IMG/VR virus record: IMGVR_UViG_3300045450_000050 | Location: 71,343-135,342 of that record | DNA length: 64,000 bases | DNA from: a virus | Taxonomy: Duplodnaviria; Heunggongvirae; Uroviricota; Caudoviricetes | Reading direction: 5' to 3' (one strand) | Shown: positions 1,557 to 55,913 of the stretch, piece after piece | Numbering within the stretch: position 1 is the stretch's first letter | How the letters are laid out: the number at the start of each line of letters is the position of its first letter | Notes under the pieces: generated by a model | The model's input: the letters and a program-made list of their open reading frames with translations, nothing else | Database searches by the model: none | Told to the model about the DNA's origin: nothing | Program-made: the position numbers and the translations under genes

Positions 1557-1685
1557 GAGGTCCTTCTTTCCATCAGGCCACTCTTAGGCCTAATAAATGC
1601 AGTATACGCGCTAACCGAGGGCTCCGCTAGTAGATAGGCTGCTTCGCATGGCGACTGGGATGTGCGAAGCCCTCGGAGTCTTTGG

Positions 1686-4812: not shown

Positions 4813-5282
4813 CAGGCGCGCCCTCGCTCCTGGCGGACGTACTTGTAGCGACCACGGATCTCGGTCACCATCTGATCGCGCTTGGCCTGGTCCAGCTCGC
4901 TCCACGGCATGAAGGCGGCGGTGAAGCCGTTGGTCTCATAGACCGCACGTGTCACGTCCTCCCAGAACTTGTCGGTGTTCTGCGGCTGAGTGAGCAGCGC
5001 CACGACGACCGTATCGATGTCGCGGTGCTGGTAGCCGAGCTGGCCGTTCGAGTCGGCGACGGCATCCAAGCGCTCGACGGCAGCGTGGACCTCGGCATCG
5101 CGCGGGAGGAGCAGGAACATGCCCTCCACGATTGCCTTGATGGACTTGCTGCCCTCGACGATCTCGGCCTGCGCAGCATCGGAGCGGCCCTGCTTGGCGT
5201 GGGCGAGCGCGGTGTTGAGGCGGTACATCAGCTCCGCCTGGAGCTTGTCGACCACAGCGTTCTGAATGGGGTTGTTCGGCAT
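4812..5282 (-). CDS. hypothetical protein (156 aa)
   Basis: Full track ORF; promoter-like motif at 5321-5354 upstream. Confidence 0.75.
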   Translation of the reverse strand: MPNNPIQNAVVDKLQAELMYRLNTALAHAKQGRSDAAQAEIVEGSKSIKAIVEGMFLLLPRDAEVHAAVERLDAVADSNGQLGYQHRDIDTVVVALLTQPQNTDKFWEDVTRAVYETNGFTAAFMPWSELDQAKRDQMVTEIRGRYKYVRQERGRA

Positions 5283-5320
5283 GATGCCCTTTCGCTAGGC
5301 GAGTGCTTTCGACCCGCAGA

Positions 5321-5354
5321 TTGATTATTGCACGTTACGCGCTATCGCACAAAG
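5321..5354 (-). promoter_or_regulatory. promoter-like motif copy
   Basis: TTGATTATTGCACGTTACGCGCTATCGCACAAAG. Confidence 0.55.
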
Positions 5355-7407: not shown

Positions 7408-7716
7408 TCACGACTGCTCCTTCGGGGTGGCGACGGCGTGCGCCAGGATGGCGTACCAGCTCGTCAGGTCGTGGGGGTACTCGTGGAGCCAGGTGCGCTG
7501 TGCGCCCTCTTCCTCACCCCGCTGGTGGCGCTGGAGGGCGTACTGAGCAACCATCTGCGCCGTGGGGTCGCCGTAGCCGAGCTGCGTGGCCATGCGCAGG
7601 CCCGCCGCGATGTTGACGGGGTCGACGTTCACACCAGGCACGAGCGGGTTGCCGTGCATGTCGCGGGTGTTGTGACCGGGGTGGCCCTCGTACAGGGGCT
7701 CCTCGATGAGGCTCAC
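7408..7716 (-). CDS. hypothetical protein (102 aa, GTG start)
   Basis: GTGA overlap with upstream stop. Confidence 0.6.
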   Translation of the reverse strand: MSLIEEPLYEGHPGHNTRDMHGNPLVPGVNVDPVNIAAGLRMATQLGYGDPTAQMVAQYALQRHQRGEEEGAQRTWLHEYPHDLTSWYAILAHAVATPKEQS

Positions 7717-8129
7717 TGGGCCGACTCCAGCCGTCCGCACTTGGCGCAGGCGGGACCGAACGGCGTGCCCACGGAAGGGCCGTGCACGTGCTCGACCTTC
7801 TGTGCGGCGGTCTGCTCGACGATCTTCGACGCCGTCTGCTGCCAGCTCGCCGCGGTGCTCTCCTGGACGGAGGGGCGCAGGTTGCGGTGGCGGAGGATGT
7901 CGGCAGCGGCTCGGTACGCGCGGTACTCCTCGGCGGCTTTCATGGCCTCGCCCACGGAGACTTCTCCGTGGAGGCGAACGGACTCGCGGATCTCTTCGTT
8001 GGTGCCGGAGATGTCGACGCCGTATTTGTCCTCGAAGGTTGCGACGATCTCGTCTTCGCCACGATCGGCGTAGGCGAGTAACGCCCGGAGACGCTTGTCA
8101 GTGAGTTTCTGGGGGGTGCGGGCAGGCAT
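7713..8129 (-). CDS. hypothetical protein (138 aa)
   Basis: Track ORF; first gene after promoter motif 8177-8207. Confidence 0.7.
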   Translation of the reverse strand: MPARTPQKLTDKRLRALLAYADRGEDEIVATFEDKYGVDISGTNEEIRESVRLHGEVSVGEAMKAAEEYRAYRAAADILRHRNLRPSVQESTAASWQQTASKIVEQTAAQKVEHVHGPSVGTPFGPACAKCGRLESAQ

Positions 8130-8176
8130 GTGGATGTCCCTCTGTCTGGCAGGGTGCTCGTGACTCTGCGGTGGTT

Positions 8177-8207
8177 AGATTGTGGCACGTTACGCGCTAA
8201 CGGTCAA
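8177..8207 (-). promoter_or_regulatory. promoter-like motif copy
   Basis: TAGATTGTGGCACGTTACGCGCTAACGGTCAA. Confidence 0.5.
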
Positions 8208-15167: not shown

Positions 15168-15509
15168 TCAGGCCGTGGCGGGCTTGCTCGCGTCGAAGTC
15201 CTCCAGGGAGTCGAACACGTCGTGCATGGTCGCGCCCACGGGCACGAGTGCAGGGACGACGGCCATGTAGCCCTCACCGGCCCACTCGATGGCGTTCGCA
15301 CGCATGGCGTAGTAGCGGATCTCGTCGCCCTTCTCGGCCATGTAGCCCGGGATGTGGGTGACGACGACGCTGTCAGGGGCGACGCCGATTGTGCCCTGCG
15401 GCGTGAGGACCGCATACAGGTGGCCAGTGACGCCCTGGAAGTAGCCAGTGCGTCCTGCGGCATCTCCGGTCTCGACGCGGACGTGGGAACCGATCTGGGG
15501 AGTAGCCAT
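15168..15509 (-). CDS. hypothetical protein (113 aa)
   Basis: Track ORF; preceded by motif, stem-loop and RBS cassette. Confidence 0.75.
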   Translation of the reverse strand: MATPQIGSHVRVETGDAAGRTGYFQGVTGHLYAVLTPQGTIGVAPDSVVVTHIPGYMAEKGDEIRYYAMRANAIEWAGEGYMAVVPALVPVGATMHDVFDSLEDFDASKPATA

Positions 15510-15552
15510 GGCGTGTGCCTCTCGTGAGGGGGAGTCTGTCGCTCCCGGTAGC

Positions 15553-15586
15553 TCTATTGTTGCACGTCACGCGCTAACGCACAAGC
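15553..15586 (-). promoter_or_regulatory. promoter-like motif copy, with stem-loop and RBS cassette
   Basis: CTCTATTGTTGCACGTCACGCGCTAACGCACAAGC. Confidence 0.6.
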
Positions 15587-15644
15587 TGAAACGCGAAGTG
15601 GCCCCCCGGGTTCTCCGAGGGGCCGAGCAATGGGGGCGGCACGG

Positions 15645-16271: not shown

Positions 16272-16390
16272 CAGACGGCCCGACGCGAGATGACGAACCA
16301 CAGGCCGAAGAGGCGGATGCTGCGGCTGACGGTGACAGCGGGCCGGGATGGGCGGTTGGCGACGTGCGCACTGGCGGGGACGGGAAGCAT
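16271..16390 (-). CDS. possible 39-aa peptide
   Basis: ATG 16390; overlaps downstream start. Confidence 0.25.
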   Translation of the reverse strand: MLPVPASAHVANRPSRPAVTVSRSIRLFGLWFVISRRAV

Positions 16391-16438
16391 GAGGGTCCGA
16401 TCTCTCGATGCGAGGGCTCTTGCCTCGCTGTACCCCTA

Positions 16439-16468
16439 GCTTAGTGCACGTCACGCGCTAACGTCAAG
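16439..16468 (-). promoter_or_regulatory. promoter-like motif copy
   Basis: CTTAGTGCACGTCACGCGCTAACGTCAAGC. Confidence 0.5.
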
Positions 16469-16856: not shown

Positions 16857-16897
16857 CCGGCCAGCCTACCGCTCCGAATCTTCTTAGCGCGTGACAC

Positions 16898-16955: not shown

Positions 16956-17363
16956 TCAGTGCGAGTACAGGCGCTGCGCCTCCATCAGGCCACGCAGGCG
17001 ACCCTGCGAGAGGGCGATGGACTCGATCTGAGAGTTGATGGTGCTCAAGCTCAGCGGGTAGTCGGACGCGAGGCGAACCAACTCTTCCTGCTTACGAGCA
17101 AGTTCGCCTTCGACCATGACGATGCGCGACTGGAGTTTGGCTGCGGGGCTGTCCTTCGGCGTGATGTTGCGCAGGGCGGTCGCGAGGCTGTGCTCGGGAC
17201 GCACCTCGGTGTCGATCTCGTAGGTGTACTGACCGATGGTGTCGTTCCACTCGATCTCAGACACGAAGTGCCCACTGCGCTGGTGAGCGACACGGGACTG
17301 CTGAGCGGTCTCGATGCCCTTGCCTGCGGCCACCGTGCGGTTGGGGTTGAAGTGCTTCGTCAT
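16956..17363 (-). CDS. hypothetical protein (135 aa), C-terminal coiled coil
   Basis: Track ORF. Confidence 0.7.
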   Translation of the reverse strand: MTKHFNPNRTVAAGKGIETAQQSRVAHQRSGHFVSEIEWNDTIGQYTYEIDTEVRPEHSLATALRNITPKDSPAAKLQSRIVMVEGELARKQEELVRLASDYPLSLSTINSQIESIALSQGRLRGLMEAQRLYSH

Positions 17364-17407
17364 GTCAGATTCCGTTCTCCGGGGGAAGTCTCGTGCCTCC
17401 CGATGGA

Positions 17408-17441
17408 TCTATTCTTGCACGTCACGCGCTAACGCACAAGC
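17408..17441 (-). promoter_or_regulatory. promoter-like motif copy
   Basis: TCTATTCTTGCACGTCACGCGCTAACGCACAAGC (consensus copy). Confidence 0.6.
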
Positions 17442-17447: not shown

Positions 17448-17870
17448 TCAGACGAGATCCCAGCTAGTCGCGAGACCGTACTTCCAGCGAAGAAACCGTT
17501 CTAGGTCATACGCGCTAACCACAGCATCGAAGACAGGCGTCGACTCCCGGTTAGCGCGTGACGCGCGCGATGTGAGCCCTGCCATCATCCGGTAGGACTC
17601 CAGGTCGATTTGGCCTTCCACGGTGACGCTTCTCGGCTCCCACGTCCAGGCGTCCAGGATCTCGGCCACACCCTCGAAGTCATCCTGCCCCTCAGGGGTC
17701 CAGTTCTGGCGCTCGTCCCGTTCAGCGGCAGTGGGTATGTGCGCGTCACGCGCTAGCTGCGGGTCCACCCATATGAGACCGAGCATGCCTGTGGGCGAGC
17801 CGATGACTCGAAGCTCCGAATCTTCTTGCGCGTCACGCGCTACCCGCACGGCGGGGATGCCAGGTTTCAT
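17448..17870 (-). CDS. hypothetical protein (140 aa); reading frame contains several inverted copies of the ACGCGCTAAC half-motif
   Basis: Track ORF; coding status uncertain because of embedded dyad repeats (17507-17572, 17738-17760, 17826-17848). Confidence 0.45.
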   Translation of the reverse strand: MKPGIPAVRVARDAQEDSELRVIGSPTGMLGLIWVDPQLARDAHIPTAAERDERQNWTPEGQDDFEGVAEILDAWTWEPRSVTVEGQIDLESYRMMAGLTSRASRANRESTPVFDAVVSAYDLERFLRWKYGLATSWDLV

Positions 17871-18928
17871 TTCAGGTTCGCTTCCACGTACTCGGCTGCG
17901 AGACGTGCTGCCTCGGCAATGGTGATGGTGTCTGCGTCGGACTCGCCATAGTTGGGGCTCTTCATGTCCACGCTCTTGCCATGTTCGTGCATGTACGCGC
18001 TAAACCCCTCTGCCAGTCCGCCCAGGGCCTCGCTGTAGCTGATCTCGGCTTGGGCAAGCTCTTCGTTCGCTGCGTTCAGATTCGCGAGGGTTGCCGCTGC
18101 TGCCTTGTCAGCTTCCAGATAGGACGTGAGGCTGCGCTTTAGTGCTGCGTACGCGCTAGCCGCTGCCATCAGGTCGGCTTCGCTCGGGATCTCGAAGTCG
18201 GCTGCGCCCCTGAGGGCTCGTACACGGCCTGCGTTGATCTCCAGGGCCTCCAGGGCACCGGCGAGGCTATCTACGGCCTCAGACAGGCTCCTGGCGCGTT
18301 CTATGGCACCTTCCGCCTCGCCCAGGGCTGCTACTTGCGCTTTCAGGTCGCGATACCCCGGCACTTTTGCCTTGATCACTTCCAGATCCGCGCTGCGTGT
18401 GGTGAGCGTGCGCTTGTGGGCATCCTTGCGCCTGTTGCTCTCCCGCGCACCCTCTAGGAGCACCGTGGCATTCGTGAGGGCTCCCAGGGTCCGCGCGATC
18501 TCTGGTGCGCTCTCATCGAGCAAGTAGGGCTTGTCGAATTGCGATGCGAACGCGAGCGGGTCCTTCGGGTCGATCCCCAGGAACGCGCTCACCTCCACAG
18601 GCACTTCCCCGCCCAGCTTGCTGTACGTCGTCTGCGGTGCAAGCGGGTGGCTCGGGTCGTTCGGGATGACCACATAGCTGTTGTCGCTCGTGCCCTTGCC
18701 CCTGGTGAGCGTCACGCTCCCGTGTGTGGTGCGAAGCGTGATAGCTGCCGTCCGCTCCCCCTGACTGATGAACGCTGCGCCGCGTCGGTTCGCAATCGCT
18801 GTGTTCAGCGCTCGGGTGAGTGCGCTCTTGCCGCTGGACGACGGGCCGACGATCACGGTAAACGGTGCCAGGTCCAAGCTCACGTCATGCAGAGACTGGA
18901 AGTTCCGTACGTGGATGTGCTCGATCAC
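17867..18928 (-). CDS. SMC/SbcC/RecF-like ABC ATPase head domain protein (truncated, coiled coil)
   Basis: N-terminus MIEHIHVRNFQSLHDVSLDLAPFTVIVGPSSSGKSA (Walker A); long coiled coil; no Walker B or signature segment found. Confidence 0.75.
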   Translation of the reverse strand: MIEHIHVRNFQSLHDVSLDLAPFTVIVGPSSSGKSALTRALNTAIANRRGAAFISQGERTAAITLRTTHGSVTLTRGKGTSDNSYVVIPNDPSHPLAPQTTYSKLGGEVPVEVSAFLGIDPKDPLAFASQFDKPYLLDESAPEIARTLGALTNATVLLEGARESNRRKDAHKRTLTTRSADLEVIKAKVPGYRDLKAQVAALGEAEGAIERARSLSEAVDSLAGALEALEINAGRVRALRGAADFEIPSEADLMAAASAYAALKRSLTSYLEADKAAAATLANLNAANEELAQAEISYSEALGGLAEGFSAYMHEHGKSVDMKSPNYGESDADTITIAEAARLAAEYVEANLK

Positions 18929-19074
18929 GGGATGCTCCGATGTGTCTCGTATGCGCTCGGATCGATCCGCACCTCAGGTGACCACTCGCTATCCACACTG
19001 AGGGTGAGTCGATAGATGGCTGCTGCCGCCCATGCGAGCGCTGCCAGGCTCAGCGCGATGATGACTGGTCTCAT
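18925..19074 (-). CDS. small secreted/membrane peptide (49 aa)
   Basis: Not in track; MRPVIIALSLAALAWAAAAIY...; GTGA and ATGA overlaps. Confidence 0.45.
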   Translation of the reverse strand: MRPVIIALSLAALAWAAAAIYRLTLSVDSEWSPEVRIDPSAYETHRSIP

Positions 19075-19328
19075 GACCGTGATACTCCCTCGGGGCTCGT
19101 GATATCCGCACTGCTGACGATCCGTGCCAGGTGCTCACGGGACAACCGCGTCTTCGTCATCAGATACGGATACGGGATGCGTGCCTCTCGTGCATCCCTG
19201 ATGAGGTTGTCACGGTTAGCGCGTGACGCGGCGAGGGCTTGCTCTGCCTTGCGTACCTCCTCGCATGCCTCAGTCAGTGCCGATAGCGCGAGTGACGCAC
19301 TAATGGTTGGTGCCGGTCGTTTTGCCAT
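19071..19328 (-). CDS. hypothetical protein, possible HTH regulator (85 aa)
   Basis: Track ORF; IPYPYLMTKTRLSREHLARIV helix-turn-helix-like segment. Confidence 0.6.
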   Translation of the reverse strand: MAKRPAPTISASLALSALTEACEEVRKAEQALAASRANRDNLIRDAREARIPYPYLMTKTRLSREHLARIVSSADITSPEGVSRS

Positions 19329-19334
19329 GACCGA

Positions 19335-19366
19335 ATTGTAGCGTGTCCGTTACGCGCTAACGCGGC
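19335..19366 (-). promoter_or_regulatory. promoter-like motif copy
   Basis: ATTGTAGCGTGTCCGTTACGCGCTAACGCGGC. Confidence 0.5.
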
Positions 19367-19432
19367 CCGGGGGTGTGTCGCTAATTCGCGATTCCAGGTA
19401 CACCCCCGGTGTGCTGTGTGAGGCTCACAGGG

Positions 19433-19765
19433 CTACTTCCAAGGGCACCCGCTCTCATGGTCAACGTCGCTGCGCTCGTGGCAGTAGGCGCACACATTGC
19501 GTCGGCGCTGTTCGATGTAGTCGGTGGGAGGTGTCCCGTACCTGCCCAGGTCATCACTGCCCCAGGCAAGCATGTTGTGATGCTCGACGGCCCACGTGGG
19601 ATTGATCTCGACGTAGCGGCCGCTGCCGTCCCGTTCGATAGCGCGGGAGACAATCTGGGCGTCTTCCTCTCGCCAGAACGGACCCCCTGCGAGTTGGTAG
19701 CCGCTGCCATCCGGATTGATGACGTACAGGTGTGCCCTGCCGGTGCGCTCGGGGTATGTAGCCAT
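19433..19765 (-). CDS. hypothetical protein, C-terminal Cys/His cluster
   Basis: Track ORF; CAYCHERSDVDHESGCP. Confidence 0.7.
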   Translation of the reverse strand: MATYPERTGRAHLYVINPDGSGYQLAGGPFWREEDAQIVSRAIERDGSGRYVEINPTWAVEHHNMLAWGSDDLGRYGTPPTDYIEQRRRNVCAYCHERSDVDHESGCPWK

Positions 19766-19767
19766 GA

Positions 19768-20283
19768 TCAGGACCCCGCGCCCAGCATGGCGAAGATCTC
19801 TTCGCTGGTCTCGTACACGTGCAGGATGCCGCCCGTGGTGAGACTGATGTACGTACTGTTGTCGGCGTCACTCTCCACGGGGGTGAAGCGCGTGATGGTG
19901 AAACGGTGCACGTGCGTGGGCATCTGTCGGCCCACCTCGAACACGGTGATGAAGTCGTGGCGCACACGGGGGGCTGCGGGCGTCGGGGTGGCCCTGACAG
20001 TAGCCCTGAGGTTGTCGAAGTAGTCGCGTGCCCCGGCTGCGTACGCGTTGTATGCCTGGACGCCCACCTCATCGAACAACTCGGTGAGGGCTCCGTACAG
20101 CTCGTCAACGCCGATGTCCTCGCCCTGCACGTACACGTCCTCCCCCGCGTGGGCGGCGAGCGCGTGACGCATGTCATCGATGAGTGCGATGGGGTAGTCC
20201 TCCCACGAGTCGGGGCGGTCGTCCGTGTAGTCACGGAAGCGATTGATGATCAGATTGGTGCTGGCGGGGATCTTGATAGCCAT
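19768..20283 (-). CDS. hypothetical protein (171 aa)
   Basis: Track ORF. Confidence 0.75.
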   Translation of the reverse strand: MAIKIPASTNLIINRFRDYTDDRPDSWEDYPIALIDDMRHALAAHAGEDVYVQGEDIGVDELYGALTELFDEVGVQAYNAYAAGARDYFDNLRATVRATPTPAAPRVRHDFITVFEVGRQMPTHVHRFTITRFTPVESDADNSTYISLTTGGILHVYETSEEIFAMLGAGS

Positions 20284-20316
20284 GATGCGTTCTCGATTCT
20301 GGATTCAGGGTGGATG

Positions 20317-20640
20317 TCAGCGGAGGGGGCGACGGTTGAGGGATGCGTAGCCCAGGTCGGCGTTCCAAGCGAGCAGGTAGTCCTGCCCACCCACGCGCTG
20401 GATGCTCACGCGGTCGCTGCTGCCCCACTGACCACCGTCTGTGGTGTGGGCCTCATCGGTCTCGCTGCCCATGTCCCACTGTGCGAGATACACGGCCATG
20501 TCATGCGTGCCTGCGTCGGCGATCTCGTCGTATCCGTCGCCCTGGACGTACGCGATGGAGACCCACTGGCCCTGGCCACGGTCCCAGTAGGTCTCGTGGT
20601 CGAAAACGGCGGTGATGTCGGCGTCGGTGATGTCAGCCAT
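20317..20640 (-). CDS. acidic hypothetical protein (107 aa)
   Basis: Track ORF. Confidence 0.7.
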   Translation of the reverse strand: MADITDADITAVFDHETYWDRGQGQWVSIAYVQGDGYDEIADAGTHDMAVYLAQWDMGSETDEAHTTDGGQWGSSDRVSIQRVGGQDYLLAWNADLGYASLNRRPLR

Positions 20641-20684
20641 GATGTGATTCCGTTCGTCGGGGGGAGTCTCTTGCTCCCCGTATG

Positions 20685-20754
20685 ACTCAATTAAAACACG
20701 TCACGCGCTAACCGTCAAGACTAAATCTCGAATTGGTTAGCGCGTGACGTGTGG
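20685..20754 (-). promoter_or_regulatory. promoter-like motif copy plus inverted half-site (dyad)
   Basis: ACGTCACGCGCTAACCGTCAAG ... GGTTAGCGCGTGACGT inverted repeat ~26 bp apart. Confidence 0.5.
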
Positions 20755-20758
20755 GGGC

Positions 20759-20935
20759 TCAGGTGTAGCGCTTCGTGGCTTCCACGTCCGCGGCGTACAC
20801 ACGTGCCCAGGTGTCTGCGAGCGTCATGATGCGCTCGAATGAGGGACCCTGAGTGCCAATCGCTACCGTGGCCTTGCTCAGGGCTTGGATGGTCTGATCA
20901 CGCGACTGTGCCGCGTTTGTGTGCGGGTTAGGCAT
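20759..20935 (-). CDS. small hypothetical protein (58 aa)
   Basis: Not in track; MPNPHTNAAQSRDQTIQALSKATVAIG... Confidence 0.4.
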   Translation of the reverse strand: MPNPHTNAAQSRDQTIQALSKATVAIGTQGPSFERIMTLADTWARVYAADVEATKRYT

Positions 20936-21299
20936 GGCTCGTCATTATGACCGTGAGCGAGTCGGGCGAGACGAGAACCGCGGATGCGTCCCCCTCGAAT
21001 TGCACCAAAACGCTGCTGCTGTCTCGGCCTTGGATGAGTGAGCGTGAGAGGGTGATGCCCTCGCGCCCACTCGCATTGAGCCTGACGCGTTGTCCTGCGT
21101 GGCCATGGGGGCGCTGCATCTCAGCTTCCGCCTTTCGAAGTGTCATCTTGTCGCCGTAGCGGAGCATGTATCTCTGCGGGGTGCCGTCTTCATCCCAGCC
21201 GTGCACCTCATAACTCTCCACATACGAGTCATAGATCGAGAACGACCGTCCGCTCTTCGTATCGATGTCCGCGATGATGCCGCGGTTGCGGATGGTCAC
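20928..21299 (-). CDS. hypothetical protein (123 aa)
   Basis: Track ORF. Confidence 0.7.
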   Translation of the reverse strand: MTIRNRGIIADIDTKSGRSFSIYDSYVESYEVHGWDEDGTPQRYMLRYGDKMTLRKAEAEMQRPHGHAGQRVRLNASGREGITLSRSLIQGRDSSSVLVQFEGDASAVLVSPDSLTVIMTSHA

Positions 21300-21583
21300 A
21301 GTCCCACGCCGATCTTGGCGAGACCTTCGTTCAGCGTGGCCATAACCTGGCCCAGCTTGCGCTCGAATTCGTCGTGCGGCACGCGGGTGCTCTTGCTGCT
21401 GCCGTCGATCTCATTGAGGTGTCGGCCCGTGGTGTTCGACCAGATGTTCTCACTGACCACACGGCGCTGCCCCGGCACGTGGAACGCGACGACGGTCTCG
21501 TACGAGAACCACAGGACGAGATTGCCCAGGTAGACGCGGGTGAGGTTGTTGTTCTGGCTGCGGCTCAGTTCGACAGTGGCCAT
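21296..21583 (-). CDS. hypothetical protein (95 aa)
   Basis: Track ORF; canonical motif/stem-loop/GAAGGGA cassette upstream. Confidence 0.7.
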   Translation of the reverse strand: MATVELSRSQNNNLTRVYLGNLVLWFSYETVVAFHVPGQRRVVSENIWSNTTGRHLNEIDGSSKSTRVPHDEFERKLGQVMATLNEGLAKIGVGL

Positions 21584-21626
21584 GGTGATATCCCTTCGTG
21601 GGTGGGAGTCTGTTGCTCCCTGGTAG

Positions 21627-21662
21627 CTCTATTCTTGCACGTCACGCGCTAACAACGCAAGC
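21627..21662 (-). promoter_or_regulatory. promoter-like motif copy with stem-loop and RBS cassette
   Basis: CTCTATTCTTGCACGTCACGCGCTAACAACGCAAGC; followed by GGGAGCAACAGACTCCC and GAAGGGA. Confidence 0.6.
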
Positions 21663-22231: not shown

Positions 22232-22693
22232 TCAGGATGTGAAGTCTTCGAAGCCCTCACGGGCAAGGAACGCGGTTGCGTCGGCGTAGGTGGCGAACGG
22301 CACGTGCGTGATCAGGCCGACTGCGGTGAGATACCACTGCACGTCGTAGGTGCCGTCCTCGGTGCCGTAGACGTTCGCTTCCGCTTCGGCGTCGTCGGTC
22401 TGGTCGTTCGGGCCGAAACGGAGCCACACGTCCAGGGCCACGTCGGTGAAGCGCTCACGGACGCGGAACGGGCCGTTGTCCTGCCACCACTCCAGCGTGT
22501 GAGCCTCGCCCGGCACGGCTTCGTGGTCCTCCAGGGCATTGTCGTGGTCGTTGCCGCGCGTGAGGTGAACCCACGGTGCGATGTCGTCGGGGTTGTCCTC
22601 ATGCGCGCTGTTGACCTCGATGAAGAACGGGCACGGTGCGCCGTCCTCGGTGTGACCTGCACACAGGATGTAGTCGCGTTCCTTGATGGCCAT
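22232..22693 (-). CDS. acidic hypothetical protein (153 aa)
   Basis: Track ORF; cassette upstream. Confidence 0.75.
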   Translation of the reverse strand: MAIKERDYILCAGHTEDGAPCPFFIEVNSAHEDNPDDIAPWVHLTRGNDHDNALEDHEAVPGEAHTLEWWQDNGPFRVRERFTDVALDVWLRFGPNDQTDDAEAEANVYGTEDGTYDVQWYLTAVGLITHVPFATYADATAFLAREGFEDFTS

Positions 22694-22737
22694 GGCCTGA
22701 TTCCCTTCGTGGGTGGGAGTCTGTTGCTCCCGATGTA

Positions 22738-22771
22738 TCTATTATTGCACGTCACGCGCTAACGCGCAAGC
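22738..22771 (-). promoter_or_regulatory. promoter-like motif copy with stem-loop and RBS cassette
   Basis: TCTATTATTGCACGTCACGCGCTAACGCGCAAGC. Confidence 0.6.
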
Positions 22772-22866: not shown

Positions 22867-23562
22867 TCACACGCTCAGCATTTCGGGAAGCTCGGGAGCC
22901 CCGGACTCGAACGCGCCCGCAGACCGCTTCGCGTAGGTCTCGCCCACGTATCCCCAGCACTGGATGTCGACCTCGAAGTCATCGAAGTCGATCTCGTCGT
23001 CAGCGAGCACACGCTCGGGCAGGGTGGCCCAACCGATGCCGTAGACCTCACCTTCGGCGATTGCACGCACCTCATCGGACATGGAGTCGACCCATTTCTG
23101 TGCCTCATCCTGATCGATCAGACCGTCGTCCTCGATGTGAGCACGAAATTCGGGCGTGTTCAGGATCAGCACGTCGTACGCGTGCCCGTAGCCGTAGTCG
23201 CCGCGGTGGAACGTGGTGCCGTGGAAGATCCATGCCCAGCGAGCGAGCACGGCGTCGCCCTTGTCGATGTGGTGCGCGCTCAGGCCGTTGTAGCGGTAGC
23301 CCGCGGCGTAGCGGAAGCGGTCGCGCGCCTCGACGATGCGCGACGCGATGGACGCACTGTCACCATCGAAGCCGCCCACGTGGTCGACACTGTCGCGGTC
23401 CACCAGGAACACGGGCAGGATCGCGTCGCCGTCCAGGTTGGTCGAGAACGATGCCTCACTGTCACGCTGGATGACGGCGAGCACACGGGGGTCGTTCGTG
23501 GGTGCCCACGCCGTCTGGTAGTCGTCCGTGTCGGTCCAGTCGTTGCACGTGATGATGTTCAT
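22867..23562 (-). CDS. hypothetical protein (231 aa)
   Basis: Track ORF; cassette upstream. Confidence 0.75.
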   Translation of the reverse strand: MNIITCNDWTDTDDYQTAWAPTNDPRVLAVIQRDSEASFSTNLDGDAILPVFLVDRDSVDHVGGFDGDSASIASRIVEARDRFRYAAGYRYNGLSAHHIDKGDAVLARWAWIFHGTTFHRGDYGYGHAYDVLILNTPEFRAHIEDDGLIDQDEAQKWVDSMSDEVRAIAEGEVYGIGWATLPERVLADDEIDFDDFEVDIQCWGYVGETYAKRSAGAFESGAPELPEMLSV

Positions 23563-23605
23563 GGTGATGTCCCTTCGTGGGTGGGAGTCTCTTGCTCCCG
23601 ATGTG

Positions 23606-23639
23606 TCTATTCTTGCATGTCACGCGCTAACGCACAAGC
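23606..23639 (-). promoter_or_regulatory. promoter-like motif copy with stem-loop and RBS cassette
   Basis: TCTATTCTTGCATGTCACGCGCTAACGCACAAGC. Confidence 0.6.
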
Positions 23640-23657: not shown

Positions 23658-23921
23658 TCAGTGCCAGTCGAGCAGGGTGTGTAGATCCGCGGGCTCGATG
23701 TCCAGTTCCCGCACGCGCACGCGATGCGTGGGGAGGTCGATCTCGATGATGGACAGGTACACGCTCGATGAGTCCATCTGAGGCGGGCTCAGGATCATGC
23801 ATGTGGTGCCGTCGACCGTGTAGGTGACGATGGCATCTTCGCCGTATGCCTCGGTGATGATGTCGATCTGTTCCTGCATCTCAGGCAGGGGAAGTAGCCG
23901 TTCGGCCATGGGGTAGTGCAT
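23658..23921 (-). CDS. hypothetical protein (87 aa)
   Basis: Track ORF. Confidence 0.65.
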   Translation of the reverse strand: MHYPMAERLLPLPEMQEQIDIITEAYGEDAIVTYTVDGTTCMILSPPQMDSSSVYLSIIEIDLPTHRVRVRELDIEPADLHTLLDWH

Positions 23922-24000
23922 CCGTTCTGGTTAGTGCGTAACGCTCAGTATCTCATGTACAGGGGCGCGAACGCAATGCTCCGAATCTTCTTCTCATCAG

Positions 24001-24526: not shown

Positions 24527-24568
24527 GGTGATTCCGTTCGTCGGTGGGAGTCTCGTGCTCCCTATGGA

Positions 24569-24748: not shown

Positions 24749-25485
24749 GGGGTGACCATCTCGTCAGCCTGCGGCGTGCCCAGGGCCTTGATGAAGTCAC
24801 GCGCTGCGGCGAGGGCGTCGCGCTTTGAACCAATGGTCGTGTAGTTGATGATGTCGTAGGTGTAGTCGCACGTGATCTCGCTCCCGCCGATGTCGGACAG
24901 GTCACTGCAATGCATGTATTCGGTCATGTTCTCGACGGCGTATCCGTCACGGCGCGGGCGGAAGTCTTCGCCGTTGTCGACACCCGGGACCACGTACGCG
25001 GCCTCGGTGACCACAAGGTGCGTGCCATCCAGCAGGGACTGGATGAAGCGACGGCCAGGGGCCGCGGAGAGTTGACGGTCACCGCCGATGTCGCCCTCAT
25101 CGGCGACGTACCCCCCGTACTCGACGGGCGCAGCCTGGGGCCAGTACGCGACCGCCCAGCCGATGGCATCGCCCTCGGGGAGACTGCCGTCTTCGTCGCG
25201 CACCTCCACGACACAGAACGCGACCGCGCCGTTGTCGGTGTGGGTGGCGAGGTCGTCCAGTGCCCACTGTCCCCACTGCTCGGATGCGTGCATGACCGCG
25301 CCGTTGTAGCTCTGCTGGCCCGTGTGACCGGTCAGCACGTGCCATCCGCTGTCCACGCTCACGTCGTCGGGTCCCAGGATGACCTCAGGGGCGTGCAGGA
25401 ACACGCTCGACTCGGTGATGGTGCCGTCCGCGTTCAGGACGTACACGGCGTCGAAGTCGGGGTCGAAGGTGGCGATGTCGATCAT
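24745..25485 (-). CDS. acidic hypothetical protein (246 aa)
   Basis: Trimmed to MIDIATFDPDFD... (cassette-derived N-terminal extension removed). Confidence 0.7.
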   Translation of the reverse strand: MIDIATFDPDFDAVYVLNADGTITESSVFLHAPEVILGPDDVSVDSGWHVLTGHTGQQSYNGAVMHASEQWGQWALDDLATHTDNGAVAFCVVEVRDEDGSLPEGDAIGWAVAYWPQAAPVEYGGYVADEGDIGGDRQLSAAPGRRFIQSLLDGTHLVVTEAAYVVPGVDNGEDFRPRRDGYAVENMTEYMHCSDLSDIGGSEITCDYTYDIINYTTIGSKRDALAAARDFIKALGTPQADEMVTP

Positions 25486-25527
25486 GGTCTTGCCTCTCGT
25501 GAGGGGGAGTCTCTTGCTCCCGATGTG

Positions 25528-25561
25528 TCTATTCTTGCATGTCACGCGCTAACGCACAAGC
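25528..25561 (-). promoter_or_regulatory. promoter-like motif copy with stem-loop and RBS cassette
   Basis: TCTATTCTTGCATGTCACGCGCTAACGCACAAGC. Confidence 0.6.
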
Positions 25562-25762: not shown

Positions 25763-26079
25763 GCGCCCTGGTGCTCCCACGTGTCGAAGTAGCCGTTCTC
25801 CCAGGCGTCGGCCAGCGCTTCGACCCCATCGACTGCGCTAGTCGATCCGAGACGTGCGTACCCCACGTCAGCGGCGACGCTGCGGGGCGAGGGGCTGTCG
25901 GCCCACTCGCCACTGAGGGGCGTCTCTTCGGAACGCACACAGCCCGCGGCGATCTGCGCACGGGCACGGTCGCTGCCCAGTGCGGAAGCTGCATCGAACT
26001 GCTCTTGCGTGGGCCATGCACCGGAGGGAGCCACCTGAAAGAAATGGTGTCCTTCGTACTCGTGCTCTTTGAACTCCAT
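25759..26079 (-). CDS. hypothetical protein (106 aa)
   Basis: Trimmed to MEFKEHEYEGHHFF... Confidence 0.65.
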   Translation of the reverse strand: MEFKEHEYEGHHFFQVAPSGAWPTQEQFDAASALGSDRARAQIAAGCVRSEETPLSGEWADSPSPRSVAADVGYARLGSTSAVDGVEALADAWENGYFDTWEHQGA

Positions 26080-26121
26080 GGTGTCTCCGATGTCCGGGGG
26101 GAGGCTCGTGCTCCCGATGGA

Positions 26122-26155
26122 TCTATTTAAGCACGTCACGCGCTAACGCACAAGC
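26122..26155 (-). promoter_or_regulatory. promoter-like motif copy with stem-loop and RBS cassette
   Basis: TCTATTTAAGCACGTCACGCGCTAACGCACAAGC. Confidence 0.6.
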
Positions 26156-40801: not shown

Positions 40802-40913
40802 TGGCGGGTTCCTTAACTCTCGAAGGATTTTGCGGCGGGCCGGAGTGGAACCTATGTGATCCGAGCTGTCTCTTTGTTGGCCCGCCGTGACTACAGGTTA
40901 GCGCGTATGCGCA

Positions 40914-41129
40914 CTAATCCGCAAGTTCGCGTTTTCTGTTGTCCACGCTGACGAACATGCGCGTCTTGTCAGTCACGTCGTCGTCCTGGTGGAACAGCAT
41001 CGAGCCCTGCTCGGTCTCGAAGCGGACGGAGGGTGGGGCCTCTCCCCCGGGGATCAGCATGACGAAGCGCTTCCCGGTGCCGGGGTGGACGAAGACGAAC
41101 GTCTCCTCGGGGGAGGGGTGCCAGACCAT
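40914..41129 (-). CDS. hypothetical protein (71 aa)
   Basis: Trimmed to MVWHPSPEETFVF... Confidence 0.55.
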   Translation of the reverse strand: MVWHPSPEETFVFVHPGTGKRFVMLIPGGEAPPSVRFETEQGSMLFHQDDDVTDKTRMFVSVDNRKRELAD

Positions 41130-43422: not shown

Positions 43423-43445
43423 GGATGTCGTCCTTTCGATCAGGG

Positions 43446-43502: not shown

Positions 43503-43504
43503 AC

Positions 43505-43930: not shown

Positions 43931-43964
43931 CTGATTATTGCACGACTCGCGCTAACGAGTCAAG
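43931..43964 (-). promoter_or_regulatory. promoter-like motif copy inside the Y-RNA locus
   Basis: CTGATTATTGCACGACTCGCGCTAACGAGTCAAG. Confidence 0.5.
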
Positions 43965-48197: not shown

Positions 48198-48198
48198 G

Positions 48199-50050: not shown

Positions 50051-50084
50051 CGATTAAAGCATGTCACGCGCTAACGCGCAACTC
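50051..50084 (-). promoter_or_regulatory. promoter-like motif copy upstream of the main tRNA cluster
   Basis: CGATTAAAGCATGTCACGCGCTAACGCGCAACTC. Confidence 0.5.
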
Positions 50085-55836: not shown

Positions 55837-55913
55837 GCTGATTCTCCTTGTGGTTGACCGCCCCCTCAGACGTTAGCAGGTAACGCGCACAAATGCGAGC
55901 TAATTCGCGAACT

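What the first reader, a model, noticed from the sequence alone, without database searches (positions are those of the whole stretch)
15510..15590. About 22 copies of a ~34-bp conserved motif, most followed by a conserved 5' stem-loop and RBS
The plus-strand consensus TCTATTCTTGCACGTCACGCGCTAACGCACAAGC recurs upstream of minus-strand gene starts: near-consensus or variant copies with core start coordinates 5321, 8177, 15553, 16439, 17408, 19335, 20685, 21627, 22738, 23606, 24569, 25528, 26122, 27385, 28835, 31047, 31984, 43931 and 50051, plus degenerate copies at about 1590, 14621, 40897, 55870 and 58750. In gene orientation it reads GCTTGTGCGTTAGCGCGTGACGTGCAAGAATAGA. That fits a sigma70-like layout (TTGTGC, 17 bp, AAGAAT), or it could serve a phage-specific polymerase or sigma factor. 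In about ten copies the motif is followed by a hairpin GGGAGC-N6-7-CTCCC and then GAAGGGA, 6-8 nt before the ATG. Conservation is high enough that several track ORFs begin with the same translated peptide (MTCKNRSIGS.RLPPT.GIT). The half-site ACGCGCTAAC also occurs inverted (20735-20754, 16884-16897, 19215-19228, and several within 17500-17850), which suggests an operator for a dimeric regulator.
Basis: seen in the sequence. Interest (0 to 1): 0.6.

Follow-up and report, generated by a model that had tools for sequence, protein, structure and literature searches.

The report
Repeated phage promoter–operator–leader cassette
A large phage related to Microbacterium phage Magritte carries about 20 copies of one ~110-bp control cassette (promoter, probable regulator site, structured mRNA leader) in front of small genes, a tRNA array and a Y-RNA-like gene; this is a known kind of phage regulatory repeat in a new, well-defined form.

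Summary
A matrix scan finds 18 strong copies, all on the gene (minus) strand, scoring 27-64 bits against at most 12 in shuffles. Four to six variant copies exist as well.

Each copy reads as a primary-sigma-type promoter:
- TTGnnn at -35
- a 17-18 bp spacer
- TG at -15/-14
- (A/T)(A/T)nAAT at -10
- a pyrimidine-purine start about 7 nt downstream

The spacer is as conserved as the -35 hexamer and holds a dyad, GTTA-N5-T(G/A)AC. This dyad also occurs outside promoters, in both orientations, which suggests an operator.

Fourteen or fifteen window copies continue into a ~45-nt leader. Hairpin 1 has strongly covarying stems and a near-invariant loop, CA-N-N-AGA. A weaker hairpin 2 has the ribosome-binding site as its 3' arm. 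Promoter copies lacking the leader precede a 14-tRNA array and a YrlA-like RNA, so the upstream half acts in transcription.

The cassette is conserved in the singleton phage Magritte (18 canonical copies) and in two metagenomic fragments. It is absent from other phages and is not a repeat in bacterial genomes.

The closest known kinds are T4-type PeSL cassettes and actinophage SAS/ESAS motifs. No transcription data exist, and a phage-encoded sigma factor remains a rival.

The parts
15507..15584 (-). Promoter 15556-15584 (TTGTGC, 17-bp spacer, AACAAT). Leader 15507-15552 with hairpin GGGAGC-GACAGA-CTCCC and the ribosome-binding site. ATG at 15509 for ORF 15168-15509.
5280..5352 (-). Cassette: promoter 5324-5352 (TTGTGC-N17-AATAAT, core GATAGCGCGTAACG) and leader 5280-5322, before ORF 4812-5282.
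8127..8207 (-). Cassette: promoter 8179-8207 (TTGACC-N17-CACAAT, perfect dyad CGTTAGCGCGTAACG) and leader 8127-8173, before ORF 7713-8129.
16388..16467 (-). Cassette: promoter 16439-16467 (TTGACG, -10 TAAGCT or CTAAGC) and leader 16388-16433. The hairpin-1 stem here is GCGAGG/CCTCGC, a compensated variant.
17361..17439 (-). Cassette with the exact 34-mer consensus: promoter 17411-17439 and leader 17361-17406, before ORF 16956-17363.
20638..20718 (-). Cassette: promoter 20690-20718 (TTGACG-N17-TTTAAT) and the best-scoring leader, 20638-20684 (53.6 bits). A second, inverted dyad lies at 20736-20748, 36 bp upstream.
21581..21660 (-). Cassette: promoter 21631-21660 (18-bp spacer) and leader 21581-21626, before ORF 21296-21583. 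It is orthologous to the Magritte cassette at 95070 and the L045 cassette at 1749, whose hairpin stems differ.
22691..22769 (-). Cassette: promoter 22741-22769 and leader 22691-22737, before ORF 22232-22693, which has no Magritte homologue.
23560..23637 (-). Cassette: promoter 23609-23637 and leader 23560-23605, before ORF 22867-23562. It is orthologous to Magritte gp151 and to metagenome contig L044.
24524..24600 (-). Cassette: promoter 24572-24600 and leader 24524-24568, before ORF 24038-24526. This copy is the source of the artefactual 'MTCKNRSIGS' peptide.
25483..25559 (-). Cassette: promoter 25531-25559 and leader 25483-25527, before ORF 24745-25485. It is orthologous to Magritte 89625.
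26077..26153 (-). Cassette: promoter 26125-26153 (TTGTGC-N17-TTAAAT) and leader 26077-26121.
27332..27417 (-). Cassette: promoter 27388-27417 (18-bp spacer) and a longer leader, 27332-27382 (hairpin GGGC/GCCC), before ORF 26327-27334. It is orthologous to Magritte gp144.
28751..28864 (-). Promoter 28836-28864 (TTGACA-N17-AACAAT), the only copy found by the generic E. coli-style scan. An 81-nt structured leader runs to the GTG at 28753.
30918..31078 (-). Promoter 31050-31078 (perfect dyad). It is followed by an inserted strong hairpin at about 30978-31016, and then a leader module at 30918-30963 that ends in a GTG start.
31934..32016 (-). Promoter 31988-32016 (TTGTGC-N17-AAGAAT, dyad CGTTAGCGCATAACG) and a 50-nt leader with hairpin GCTG-CACGAGT-CAGC, before ORF 31082-31936.
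43934..43963 (-). Promoter copy without a leader (TTGACT-N18-AATAAT). It lies directly upstream of a YrlA-like RNA (43780-43913), further conserved non-coding RNA, and the Ro60/TROVE gene 41782-43629.
50053..50081 (-). Promoter copy without a leader (TTGCGC-N17-TTTAAT), upstream of the 14-tRNA array at 47963-49860. It is orthologous to Magritte 71524, which precedes tRNA-Lys(ctt).
19326..19362 (-). Variant: perfect dyad CGTTAGCGCGTAACG (19348-19362), then 7 nt, TACAAT (19335-19340), 6 nt and ATG (19326-19328). This is a leaderless promoter for an 85-aa helix-rich, HTH-like ORF (19071-19328), the candidate regulator.
1585..1626 (-). Variant promoter GGTTAGCGCG-TATACT, before ORF 636-1556. The same variant precedes the orthologous Magritte gene (111250).
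40895..40924 (-). Variant: TTGCGG, an 18-nt spacer holding two inverted half-sites (TTAGTGCG-CATA-CGCGCTAA), then TAACCT.
55871..55885 (.). Isolated perfect dyad CGTTACCTGCTAACG with a different centre. It is conserved at the orthologous Magritte position (67916).
17506..17844 (.). Four operator-like sites outside any promoter, all inside ORF 17448-17870: 17831-17844, 17744-17757, 17550-17562 (inverted) and about 17506-17519.
19215..19227 (+). Inverted dyad inside the 85-aa ORF. The 17-nt stretch CACGCGCTAACCGTGAC is identical in Magritte and L045.
23930..23942 (.). Dyad GTTAGTGCGTAAC lying downstream of the -10 of a different promoter (TTGCGT-N18-GATACT) that serves ORF 23658-23909. The arrangement is conserved in contig L044.
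16883..16896 (+). Inverted core CTTAGCGCGTGACA, next to an AAGATTCGGAGC element and just after a terminator-like hairpin.

Best explanation
The repeat is a modular expression cassette of a large, Magritte-like siphovirus. It has three layers.

(1) Promoter. It is read most likely by the host primary sigma factor. Its parts are an A/T-rich upstream tract (aATTTCAGATTc), TTGnnn at -35, a 17-18 bp spacer, TG at -15/-14, (A/T)(A/T)nAAT at -10, and a start at a C/T-A step about 7 nt downstream.

(2) Operator. The spacer carries a 13-15 bp dyad, (C)GTTA-N5-T(G/A)AC(G). A phage-encoded dimeric DNA-binding protein probably binds it and switches the whole set of about 20 transcription units together. 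Given the site's position between -35 and -10, the switch is most likely repression.

(3) Leader. At protein-coding units the transcript begins 2-4 nt before a 5-7 bp hairpin with a near-invariant loop, CA-N-N-AGA. A weak second hairpin follows, whose 3' arm is an extended ribosome-binding site (GAAGGGA) 6-8 nt before the ATG. The 5'-terminal hairpin probably protects the mRNA. Because its loop sequence is conserved, it is probably also recognised by a specific factor.

What is shown and what is inferred:
- Shown from sequence: the anatomy, strand bias, spacing, covariation, conservation in relatives, and association with RNA genes.
- Inferred: promoter activity, the identity of the sigma factor, binding of a regulator, and the role of the hairpin.

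As a by-product, the repeated cassettes probably act as recombination points that shuffle small genes, as PeSL cassettes do in T4-type phages.
For: Strand and location:
- 18 strong copies lie on the gene strand and none on the other.
- In Magritte, 15 matrix hits are all on the gene strand.

Promoter geometry, over 40 copies from four sources:
- TTG at -35 in 35, a 17-18 bp spacer in all, and TG before the -10 in 38.
- When the -35 hexamer slides by 1 nt relative to the core, or the spacer changes as in Magritte variant B, the TTG-to--10 distance and the TG are kept.
- An A lies 7 nt after the -10 in 78% of copies, and a pyrimidine-purine step is there in 15 of 18 window copies.

Action in transcription:
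- Copies without the leader precede the tRNA array and a YrlA-like RNA next to the Ro60 gene.
- The same holds at the orthologous Magritte positions 71524 and 76177.

Operator:
- The spacer carries 1.19 bits per position, against 1.20 for the -35 hexamer and 0.49 after the -10. Within it the GTTA and T-AC arms score high and the centre low.
- The dyad GTTA-N5-TRAC has 22 distinct sites in the window against 0.63 expected, and 14 in Magritte against 2.
- The centre varies in Magritte (GCGCG, GTGCG, GAGAG, GAGAA) while the arms are kept.
- At least six window sites lie outside the canonical context, in both orientations and at different positions relative to other promoters.

Leader:
- 31 hits at E<1e-3 in four sources, all on the gene strand.
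- Hairpin 1 is 89% paired. Over both hairpins there are 58 doubly compensated cells, 50 of them in hairpin 1, against 15.6 in shuffles (0 of 500 shuffles reach this). Slid controls pair at 34-54%.
- Loop conservation: C 31/31, A 28/31, A 30/31, G 30/31.

Lineage conservation:
- Many window and Magritte units share only the 80-100 bp cassette, at 76-84% identity, while their ORFs are unrelated.
Against: - No transcription start, expression or binding data exist for this phage or for Magritte.
- The hexamers are only moderate matches to the E. coli consensus. The generic scan finds just 1 of the 18 copies.
- Position -11 is T or C in about a third of copies, for example TTTAAT and TTAAAT.
- The lineage encodes sigma-like proteins. 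Magritte gp47 passes the TIGR02937 cut-off and resembles FliA/WhiG. A 225-aa sub-threshold homologue lies just beyond the window.
- Most copies have an imperfect dyad (TGAC rather than TAAC).
- Magritte variant B damages the second arm.
- No regulator has been identified. The 85-aa candidate rests on weak HTH evidence: PHROG E 3e-4 for its orthologue, a model with pLDDT 75, and no structural match.
- Hairpin 2 has only 3 base pairs and modest support.
Confidence: 0.65

Rival explanations
1. The motif is the promoter class of a phage-encoded sigma factor (middle or late transcription) rather than of the host primary sigma. On this reading the conserved 'spacer' is part of an extended recognition sequence.
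For: - Magritte gp47 (246 aa) scores 51.1 bits on TIGR02937, above the 42.9 cut-off, and also hits FliA/WhiG and SigB/F/G models.
- gp47 has a Pfam Sigma70_r4_2 match at E 3.4e-9.
- gp60, and its 225-aa orthologue just outside the window, are weakly sigma-like.
- The spacer is unusually conserved.
- Some Magritte copies lack TTG at -35 yet keep the core and the -10.
Against: - TTG, the 17-18 bp spacing and an almost invariant TG at -15/-14 are hallmarks of group-1 sigma recognition.
- The two best-conserved spacer blocks are only 5 nt apart, so they cannot serve as -35 and -10 elements.
- The core occurs at several different distances from -10 elements and in both orientations. That fits a separate DNA-binding protein, not a sigma factor.
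- No match to the sigma-28/WhiG (TAAA-N15-GCCGATAA) or ECF (GGAAC...CGTC) consensus could be made by eye; these consensus sequences are taken from my own knowledge.
Confidence: 0.15
2. The cassettes matter mainly as recombination substrates: PeSL-like mobile regulatory cassettes that shuffle and import small genes. Their sequence uniformity would then reflect concerted evolution rather than regulator binding.
For: - In window 14-26 kb, many units share only the cassette with Magritte, while the ORFs between cassettes are unrelated.
- The blocks [85-aa gene + ATPase] and [gp157-like gene] are in opposite order in the two phages.
- PeSLs are described as sigma-70 promoter plus stem-loop plus ribosome-binding-site cassettes placed before ORFans in hyperplastic regions (PMC2839356, PMC4122927).
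Against: - Conservation is sharply uneven at single-base scale. The spacer arms, TG, AAT and the loop are near-invariant, while the 3' half of the -35 hexamer, the dyad centre, the region after the -10 and the hairpin stems vary. Homogenisation alone would not produce this pattern.
- This role is compatible with, and probably additional to, the regulatory function. It is not a true alternative.
Confidence: 0.3
3. The element acts only in translation, like the start-associated sequences (SAS/ESAS) of Cluster K and Cluster EF phages, and the upstream 34-mer is not a promoter.
For: - Most copies lie at a fixed distance of about 45 nt from a start codon.
- The ribosome-binding region is unusually conserved (ACGAAGGGAATCAC) and can pair extensively with the 16S rRNA 3' end (sequence inspection).
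Against: - The 34-mer occurs without any leader or ribosome-binding site in front of the tRNA array and the Y-RNA-like gene, in both phages.
- It shows -35/-10 geometry with the TG kept.
- ESAS arms are conserved in sequence (PMC3203893). Here the stems vary and covary.
Confidence: 0.04
4. The motif is a host-derived dispersed repeat or miniature mobile element, or it is a promoter for a phage single-subunit RNA polymerase.
For: - The copies are highly uniform.
- Short inverted cores flank some copies, for example 20736 and 20700.
Against: - A scan of one genome per 185,579 bacterial and archaeal species with the 17-mer core gives 36 single hits in unrelated taxa. That is below my own rough chance estimate of about 280, and no genome has multiple copies.
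- IMG/VR gives 3 single hits.
- Among 50,697 phage records, only Magritte shares the cassette.
- No RNA polymerase domain was found in the large unannotated Magritte proteins tested.
Confidence: 0.03

Closest known systems
PeSL (promoter-early stem-loop) cassettes of T4-type phages (Arbiol et al. 2010, PMC2839356; Comeau et al. 2014, PMC4122927)
   Same: - Dozens of near-identical composite cassettes: an A/T-rich tract, a sigma-70-like promoter, a stem-loop and a ribosome-binding site.
- They sit immediately upstream of small ORFans in the variable part of a large lytic-type genome.
- The cassettes are often the only similarity left between related phages, which points to module shuffling.
   Different: - The host and phage type differ: this is an actinobacterial siphovirus at 64% G+C.
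- The PeSL stem-loop lies within, overlapping, upstream of or just after the promoter boxes, ahead of the transcription start, and acts as a terminator. Here the hairpin is transcribed at the 5' end, has no U-tract, and has covarying stems with an invariant loop.
- The spacer here also carries a conserved dyad that recurs outside promoters.
SAS/ESAS start-associated sequences of Cluster K mycobacteriophages and Cluster EF Microbacterium phages (Pope et al. 2011, PMC3203893; Jacobs-Sera et al. 2020, PMC7302621)
   Same: - Actinobacteriophage-specific repeats of 10-20 copies, all in one orientation, just upstream of start codons.
- The ribosome-binding region is more conserved than ribosome-binding sites need to be.
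- An inverted-repeat element lies immediately upstream.
- The function is untested.
   Different: - There is no sequence similarity.
- ESAS arms are 17-bp inverted repeats conserved in sequence. Here the arms are 5-7 nt, vary and covary, and it is the loop that is conserved.
- This cassette includes a recognisable promoter, which also occurs alone before RNA genes.
Stoperators of Cluster A mycobacteriophages (L5 repressor; Brown et al. 1997; cited from my own knowledge)
   Same: A short conserved site, repeated about 20-30 times across a phage genome and at promoters, through which one phage protein could control many transcription units at once.
   Different: - Stoperators are 13-14 bp and asymmetric, are orientation-dependent, lie mostly within short intergenic gaps rather than in promoter spacers, and belong to temperate phages with a known immunity repressor.
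- Here the site is a dyad, lies mostly between -35 and -10, and has no identified repressor.
Early promoter families of large lytic phages (T4 early promoters; SPO1 host-takeover module; phiC31 early promoters with conserved inverted-repeat operators; cited from my own knowledge)
   Same: - Many strong, unusually uniform host-type promoters drive short operons of small early genes.
- In phiC31 they are combined with repeated repressor-binding inverted repeats.
   Different: - The sequence is unrelated.
- The timing class is unknown here.
- The operator is embedded in the spacer.
- Each unit carries a conserved structured leader.
Leader-RNA hairpins that act on polymerase or mRNA fate (lambda nut boxB, HK022 put, 5'-terminal stabiliser hairpins such as the ompA leader; cited from my own knowledge)
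   Same: A short G+C-rich hairpin with a purine-rich, sequence-conserved loop lies within a few nucleotides of the 5' end of phage transcripts.
   Different: - There is no boxA-like partner.
- There are 15-20 copies per genome rather than two.
- The hairpin lies directly against the ribosome-binding site.
- No N-like or Q-like protein has been identified.
- No Rfam family matches.

Membership tests
Primary-sigma (sigma-70/SigA-type) promoter | A -35 hexamer resembling TTGACA | tested here: met
   TTG in 35 of 40 copies. The last three bases vary (TGC, CGC, ACG, ACA)..
Primary-sigma (sigma-70/SigA-type) promoter | A 16-19 bp spacer, kept constant when neighbouring elements shift | tested here: met
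   17 or 18 bp in all 40 tabulated copies. This holds even where the -35 hexamer slides relative to the core, and in Magritte variant B..
Primary-sigma (sigma-70/SigA-type) promoter | A -10 hexamer of form TAnnnT, with A at -11 and T at -7 | tested here: inconclusive
   T at -7 in 100% of copies and AAT at 97-100%. The first base is A or T, and -11 is A in only about 62% (TTTAAT and TTAAAT variants)..
Primary-sigma (sigma-70/SigA-type) promoter | Extended -10 TG at -15/-14 | tested here: met
   38 of 40 copies.
Primary-sigma (sigma-70/SigA-type) promoter | Transcripts initiate 6-9 nt downstream of the -10 | not testable with these tools
   Only a prediction is available: a pyrimidine-purine step 7 nt after the -10 in 15 of 18 window copies. 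This needs dRNA-seq or 5'-RACE.
PeSL cassette | A repeated composite of an A/T-rich tract, a sigma-70-like promoter and a ribosome-binding site, placed before ORFans in variable regions | tested here: met
PeSL cassette | The stem-loop acts as terminator or attenuator for upstream transcription and lies in or around the promoter | tested here: not met
   The hairpin starts about 10 nt after the -10, inside the predicted transcript. It has a 5-7 bp stem and no U-tract. Separate terminator-like hairpins lie upstream of some cassettes.
PeSL cassette | Recombination between cassettes shuffles genes | tested here: inconclusive
   There is cassette-only similarity and one block-order swap relative to Magritte. 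No breakpoints have been mapped among close relatives.
SAS/ESAS | A 13-bp asymmetric conserved sequence at the ribosome-binding site, 3-8 bp before the start codon | tested here: inconclusive
   There is an analogous conserved ribosome-binding block, ACGAAGGGAATCAC, 2-8 nt before the ATG. It has no sequence similarity to GGGATAGGAGCCC or GGGAAAGGACCCC.
SAS/ESAS | ESAS: 17-bp imperfect inverted repeats whose sequence is conserved | tested here: not met
   The stems are 5-7 bp, differ between copies and covary. It is the loop that is conserved.
Cluster A stoperator-type repressor sites | An asymmetric 13-14 bp site with orientation tied to the direction of transcription | tested here: not met
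   The site is a dyad. Several copies are perfect palindromes, and it occurs in both orientations.
Cluster A stoperator-type repressor sites | Bound by an identified phage immunity repressor | not testable with these tools
   No repressor or integrase is annotated in Magritte (PMC11663251). The 85-aa HTH-like protein is only a candidate.
Known RNA families (Rfam 15) | The leader reaches a family's gathering score | tested here: not met
   Only tRNAs reach gathering score in the window.

The most novel reading that the evidence does not exclude
The cassette defines a two-layer phage regulon.

Layer 1: one phage DNA-binding protein, possibly the leaderless 85-aa protein, sits on the spacer dyad of about 20 promoters. 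This could amount to an immunity-like global silencer in a phage that makes turbid plaques but has no recognisable repressor.

Layer 2: a second, dedicated factor recognises the invariant CA-N-N-AGA loop at the 5' end of every protein-coding transcript. It would control these transcripts together, through translation or mRNA stability, or as a nut/put-like signal. The last option would let polymerase read through the inter-unit terminators of a genome in which almost every gene points the same way.
Probability: 0.25. Interest if true: 0.65.

Novelty: new variant of a known kind. Interest (0 to 1): 0.45.

Why it matters
- The cassette gives a concrete regulatory map for an almost unannotated singleton phage lineage. 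More than 80% of Magritte's genes have no identifiable homologues. The map predicts about 20 start sites, one shared operator and one shared leader RNA.
- Every prediction can be tested directly, because Magritte and its host M. foliorum NRRL B-24224 are in culture.
- If active in uninfected cells, the cassette would be a compact, strong expression module for Microbacterium and related Actinobacteria. It combines a promoter, a stabilising leader and a ribosome-binding site.
- A covarying stem with an invariant loop is a clean case of a candidate protein-recognised RNA hairpin present in 15-20 copies per genome.
- Cassette-only similarity between relatives extends the 'mobile regulatory cassette' idea from T4-type myoviruses to actinobacterial siphoviruses.

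Tried and rejected
- **Palindrome GCGCGT-G-ACG(T/C)GC as the operator.** Suggested by the promoterless sites at 17744 and 17831. Dropped because Magritte copies replace GCGCG with GAGAG or GAGAA while keeping GTTA and T(G/A)AC.
- **Upstream element as a palindrome, ATTTC-N-GAAAT.** It is perfect in some Magritte and L045 copies but not significantly enriched in the window: 11 hits against 5.4 expected. I keep it only as an A/T-rich, UP-like tract.
- **Searching for relatives by motif.**
  - IMG/VR exact core: 3 single hits.
  - RecA-based locus search in IMG/VR: nothing.
  - Metagenome scan: one 1.1-kb contig.
  - Genome scan: only chance-level single hits.
- **Rfam.** No family matches the leader. 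The YrlA match is below the gathering score (32 bits against 69) and is not found at the Magritte position.
- **A second, late-type repeated motif in Magritte's left arm.** The repeat finder returned only coding-sequence noise.
- **The 85-aa candidate regulator.** No Pfam or NCBIfam hit and no Foldseek PDB match. Only a weak PHROG HTH hit for its orthologue.
- **Ten further small conserved window proteins.** No significant DNA-binding domain.
- **Large unannotated Magritte proteins.** gp249, gp17 and gp27 show no RNA polymerase domains.
- **Generic sigma-70 and terminator scan.** It finds only 1 of the 18 copies, and terminators at chance level. It is too strict for this organism.
- **Matching the motif to other consensus sequences.** By eye I compared it with sigma-28/WhiG, SigB/F, ECF, CRP/GlxR and DtxR iron-box sequences. 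No convincing match.
Full report
**What the window is**

- The window is 63-65% G+C throughout. By codon-position G+C, essentially every real gene lies on the minus strand.
- It holds 24 minus-strand tRNA genes, a Ro60/TROVE gene, an endolysin, a RecA-like gene, an Lsr2-like gene and many small ORFs without known domains.
- The only relative among 50,697 phage records is Microbacterium phage Magritte (OR553905). Magritte is 133,228 bp, a siphovirus, and a singleton isolated on M. foliorum.
- RecA is about 75-77% identical at protein level and Ro60 about 62%. The window is syntenic with Magritte 60-112 kb.
- The window is identical (0 mismatches in 14,075 bases) to a Logan assembly contig, SRR35356220_6949.

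**The observation**

- The 34-mer with up to 3 mismatches occurs 8 times, always in the same orientation, and never in shuffles.
- A 42-nt weight matrix built from the copies finds 18 sites of 27-64 bits on the minus strand. Nothing comparable lies on the plus strand, and the shuffle maximum is 12 bits.
- In gene orientation the consensus is GC-TTGTGC-GTTAGCGCGTGACGTGC-AAGAAT-AGA.
The exception (19335) and the listed 'degenerate' copies are genuine variants of different kinds, described below.
- The recurring 'peptide' is the translation of promoter plus leader from a GTG inside the motif. It appears only because mechanical ORF calling extends to that GTG.

**Promoter anatomy**

I tabulated 40 copies: 17 in the window, 18 in Magritte, 1 in a 1.1-kb metagenome contig (L044) and 4 in a 4.1-kb Logan contig (L045). 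An 18th window copy (16439-16467) fell below the table's score threshold and was added by hand.

- 35 of the 40 have TTG at -35, all have a 17-18 bp spacer, and 38 have TG immediately before the -10.
- The -10 is (A/T)(A/T)nAAT, with AAT 97-100% conserved.
- In some copies the -35 hexamer slides by one base relative to the conserved core. In a second Magritte variant the spacer is GTTAGCGCGTACGTGTGC-TTAAAT. In both cases the -35 to -10 distance and the TG are preserved. That is the behaviour expected of elements read by a group-1 sigma factor.
- An A lies 7 nt after the -10 in 78% of copies, and a pyrimidine-purine step is there in 15 of 18 window copies.
- About 24 of the 40 copies have an A/T-rich tract (aATTTCAGATTc) at roughly -52 to -40.
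- By strict E. coli criteria the hexamers are mediocre. A generic scan finds only one copy, and -11 is not A in about a third of copies.

**Evidence that the upstream half acts in transcription**

- Two window copies have no hairpin and no ribosome-binding site. One (50053-50081) precedes the 14-tRNA array. The other (43934-43963) precedes a YrlA-like RNA (Rfam RF02553, full-length match, 32.4 bits, E 2.3e-5, below the gathering score) and further conserved non-coding sequence ahead of the Ro60 gene.
- Magritte has motif copies at the orthologous places, before tRNA-Lys(ctt) and before its Ro gene.
- Other orthologous pairs are 21631/95070, 25531/89625, 27388/88397 and 1585/111250.

**The spacer behaves like an operator**

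- Across the 40 copies the spacer carries 1.19 bits per position. The -35 hexamer carries 1.20, and the ten bases after the -10 carry 0.49. Within the spacer the profile is high at GTTA, low over the next five bases, and high again at T-AC and TG.
- This defines a dyad, (C)GTTA-N5-T(G/A)AC(G). Five window sites are perfect 15-bp palindromes.
- GTTA-N5-TRAC has 22 distinct sites in the window against 0.63 expected, and 14 in Magritte against about 2.
- In Magritte the centre varies (GCGCG, GTGCG, GAGAG, GAGAA) while the arms are kept. This is the signature of two contacted half-sites.
- The site also occurs outside the canonical promoter context and in both orientations:
  - four sites inside ORF 17448-17870;
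  - an inverted site 36 bp upstream of the 20690-20718 promoter;
  - a site downstream of the -10 of a different promoter (TTGCGT-N18-GATACT, before ORF 23658-23909), an arrangement conserved in L044;
  - an isolated dyad at 55871-55885, conserved in Magritte.
- In L045 each inter-unit region has two or three such sites.
- A site that keeps its sequence while changing position and orientation relative to polymerase elements is better explained by a separate DNA-binding protein than by sigma recognition.

**A candidate regulator (weak)**

- At 19326-19362 a perfect dyad lies 7 nt upstream of TACAAT, which is followed 6 nt later by an ATG. This is a leaderless arrangement for an 85-aa ORF.
- Orthologues exist in Magritte (93575-93793, 60% identity; the annotated gp154 starts later) and in L045 (63% identity). 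Each has a TAGCGCGTAC element against its own -10 and the same leaderless spacing.
- All three carry an internal inverted site, CACGCGCTAACCGTGAC, identical over 17 nt.
- The orthologue weakly matches a PHROG 'HTH DNA binding protein' family (E 3e-4).
- A single-sequence AlphaFold model (pLDDT 74.7) shows a long helix followed by two short helices. Foldseek finds nothing.
- This is a lead, not an identification.

**The leader**

- In 14 window copies, with one more at E 0.0045, the distance from the -10 to the start codon is 40-52 nt.
- A covariance model built from 22 leaders finds 31 hits at E<1e-3 in the four sources, all on the gene strand. These include five Magritte leaders whose promoters the matrix had missed.
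- Hairpin 1 is 89% paired across the 31 sequences. Over both hairpins, 58 cells have changes on both sides, 50 of them in hairpin 1, against 15.6 in shuffles (0 of 500 reach this). Slid controls pair at only 34-54%.
- Hairpin-1 stems include GGGAG/CTCCC, GCGAGG/CCTCGC, GGCGAG/CTCGCC, GGAGGA/TCCTCC, GCCGA/TCGGC, GCCAAG/CTTGGC and GAGCCG/CGGCTC.
- The 7-nt loop is nearly fixed: C 31/31, A 28/31, N, N, A 30/31, G 30/31, A 22/31. Orthologous cassettes in different phages have different stems and the same loop.
- With the predicted start, the hairpin begins 2-4 nt from the 5' end.
- A second hairpin of 3-4 bp (CCC-ACGAA-GGG, CCG-ACGAA-CGG, CCTC-ACGA-GAGG) has the ribosome-binding site as its 3' arm. 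Its support is modest: 82% paired, with five CG-to-GC exchanges at the inner pair.
- No Rfam family matches.
- A 5'-terminal hairpin is an established way to protect bacterial mRNAs from 5'-end-dependent decay (general knowledge). The invariant loop points in addition to sequence-specific recognition. What recognises it is unknown.

**Lineage restriction and evolution**

- The 17-mer core gives only single hits in unrelated taxa across one genome for each of 185,579 bacterial and archaeal species: 36 in total, below my own rough chance estimate of about 280.
- IMG/VR gives three single hits.
- The cassette as a whole matches only Magritte among phage records.
- The Magritte genome announcement does not mention it. 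The survey of Microbacterium phage repeats describes other, unrelated motifs.
- In window 14-26 kb many units align to Magritte only over the 80-100 bp cassette, at 76-84% identity and to several Magritte cassettes at once. The ORFs have no homologue, and two gene blocks are in swapped order.
- This is the pattern described for PeSL cassettes of T4-type phages.

**The main rival**

- Magritte gp47, annotated only as 'DNA binding protein', is a sigma-70-family protein: TIGR02937 at 51.1 bits against a cut-off of 42.9, FliA/WhiG-like, with Pfam Sigma70_r4_2 at E 3.4e-9.
- gp60, and its 225-aa orthologue just beyond this window, are weakly sigma-like.
- A phage sigma could therefore read these promoters.
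- I rate this lower for two reasons. The TTG/17-18/TG geometry is that of primary-sigma promoters, and the conserved core is positionally uncoupled from the -10.
- Only transcription assays can settle it.

**Verdict**

- It is a lineage-specific composite cassette (promoter, embedded dyad operator, structured leader). That makes it a new variant of the known class of repeated phage regulatory cassettes.
- It is worth a modest follow-up because all predictions can be tested in an available phage-host pair.

Noticed in passing
window 43630-43913 (-), with Ro60 gene 41782-43629 (-): A YrlA-like Y RNA candidate (43780-43913; Rfam 32.4 bits, below gathering score) lies beside a phage Ro60/TROVE gene. 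About 150 nt of further non-coding sequence follows, with a repeated CAGGCTG...GGTTATC module that is conserved in Magritte. Magritte lacks the YrlA-like segment at this position and instead has a tRNA-Arg(tct) upstream of its promoter.
   Followed up: partly
window 16872-16881, 17814-17823, 23979-23988, 26194-26203 (-); Magritte 84546, 86805, 89559, 91404, 94927, 96205, 97237, 98868; L044 395: A second repeated motif, (A/G)A(A/C)AAGATTCGGAGC, always on the gene strand. It often sits right after a terminator-like hairpin and next to an inverted operator core. In some Magritte copies it lies 8-10 nt before a start codon, where GGAG could serve as the ribosome-binding site. It resembles the cassette's upstream tract (AGATTCAGGC). 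Its function is unknown.
   Followed up: partly
window 19071-19328 (-); Magritte 93575-93793: A leaderless 85-aa HTH-like gene is conserved in three relatives. The Magritte annotation (gp154, 93668-93823) appears to start too late, because the leaderless ATG was missed.
   Followed up: partly
window 17448-17870 (-): A 140-aa ORF carries four operator-like sites. Its N-terminus resembles a 74-aa ORF in L045 (1535-1759). It is unclear whether this is a real gene with embedded sites, a decoy or sink for the regulator, or non-coding sequence.
   Followed up: partly
window about 30978-31016 (-): A strong hairpin (GGGGACCGCG...CGCGGTCCCC) is inserted between promoter 31050-31078 and its leader module 30918-30963. 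It could be an attenuator or an extra regulatory RNA.
   Followed up: no
Magritte 47155-47895 (gp47) and 53644-54345 (gp60); L046 546-1223: Magritte gp47, annotated 'DNA binding protein', is a sigma-70-family protein resembling FliA/WhiG. gp60, and the 225-aa orthologue just outside this window, are weakly sigma-like and sit next to clamp-loader-like genes.
   Followed up: partly
window about 25541: By coordinate arithmetic, the identical Logan contig SRR35356220_6949 (47,306 bp) should end at window position about 25541. That is exactly at the repeated core of cassette 25531-25559, which suggests the repeats break short-read assemblies. This is an inference; that end of the contig was not read.
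   Followed up: no
window 17867-21583 compared with Magritte 93575-95495: Gene order differs. In Magritte the [85-aa gene + AAA ATPase] block precedes the gp157-like gene. In the window it follows it, with several lineage-specific ORFs in between.
   Followed up: partly
window 50575-52707 (-) and 45766-48060 (-): One protein combines collagen-like repeats, a GDSL lipase domain and an Ig-like domain. The endolysin has an amidase domain and five peptidoglycan-binding repeats. Its mechanically called ORF overlaps tRNA-Ala, so the true start is later, at about 47862.
   Followed up: no
Magritte 106106, 117556, 93820, 119626: A further promoter-like class, GTTAGCGCG-TATCAC-TCAC-ATG: the operator half-site abuts a -10-like hexamer 4 nt before an ATG. 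These are possibly leaderless genes. No exact counterpart was seen in the window.
   Followed up: no
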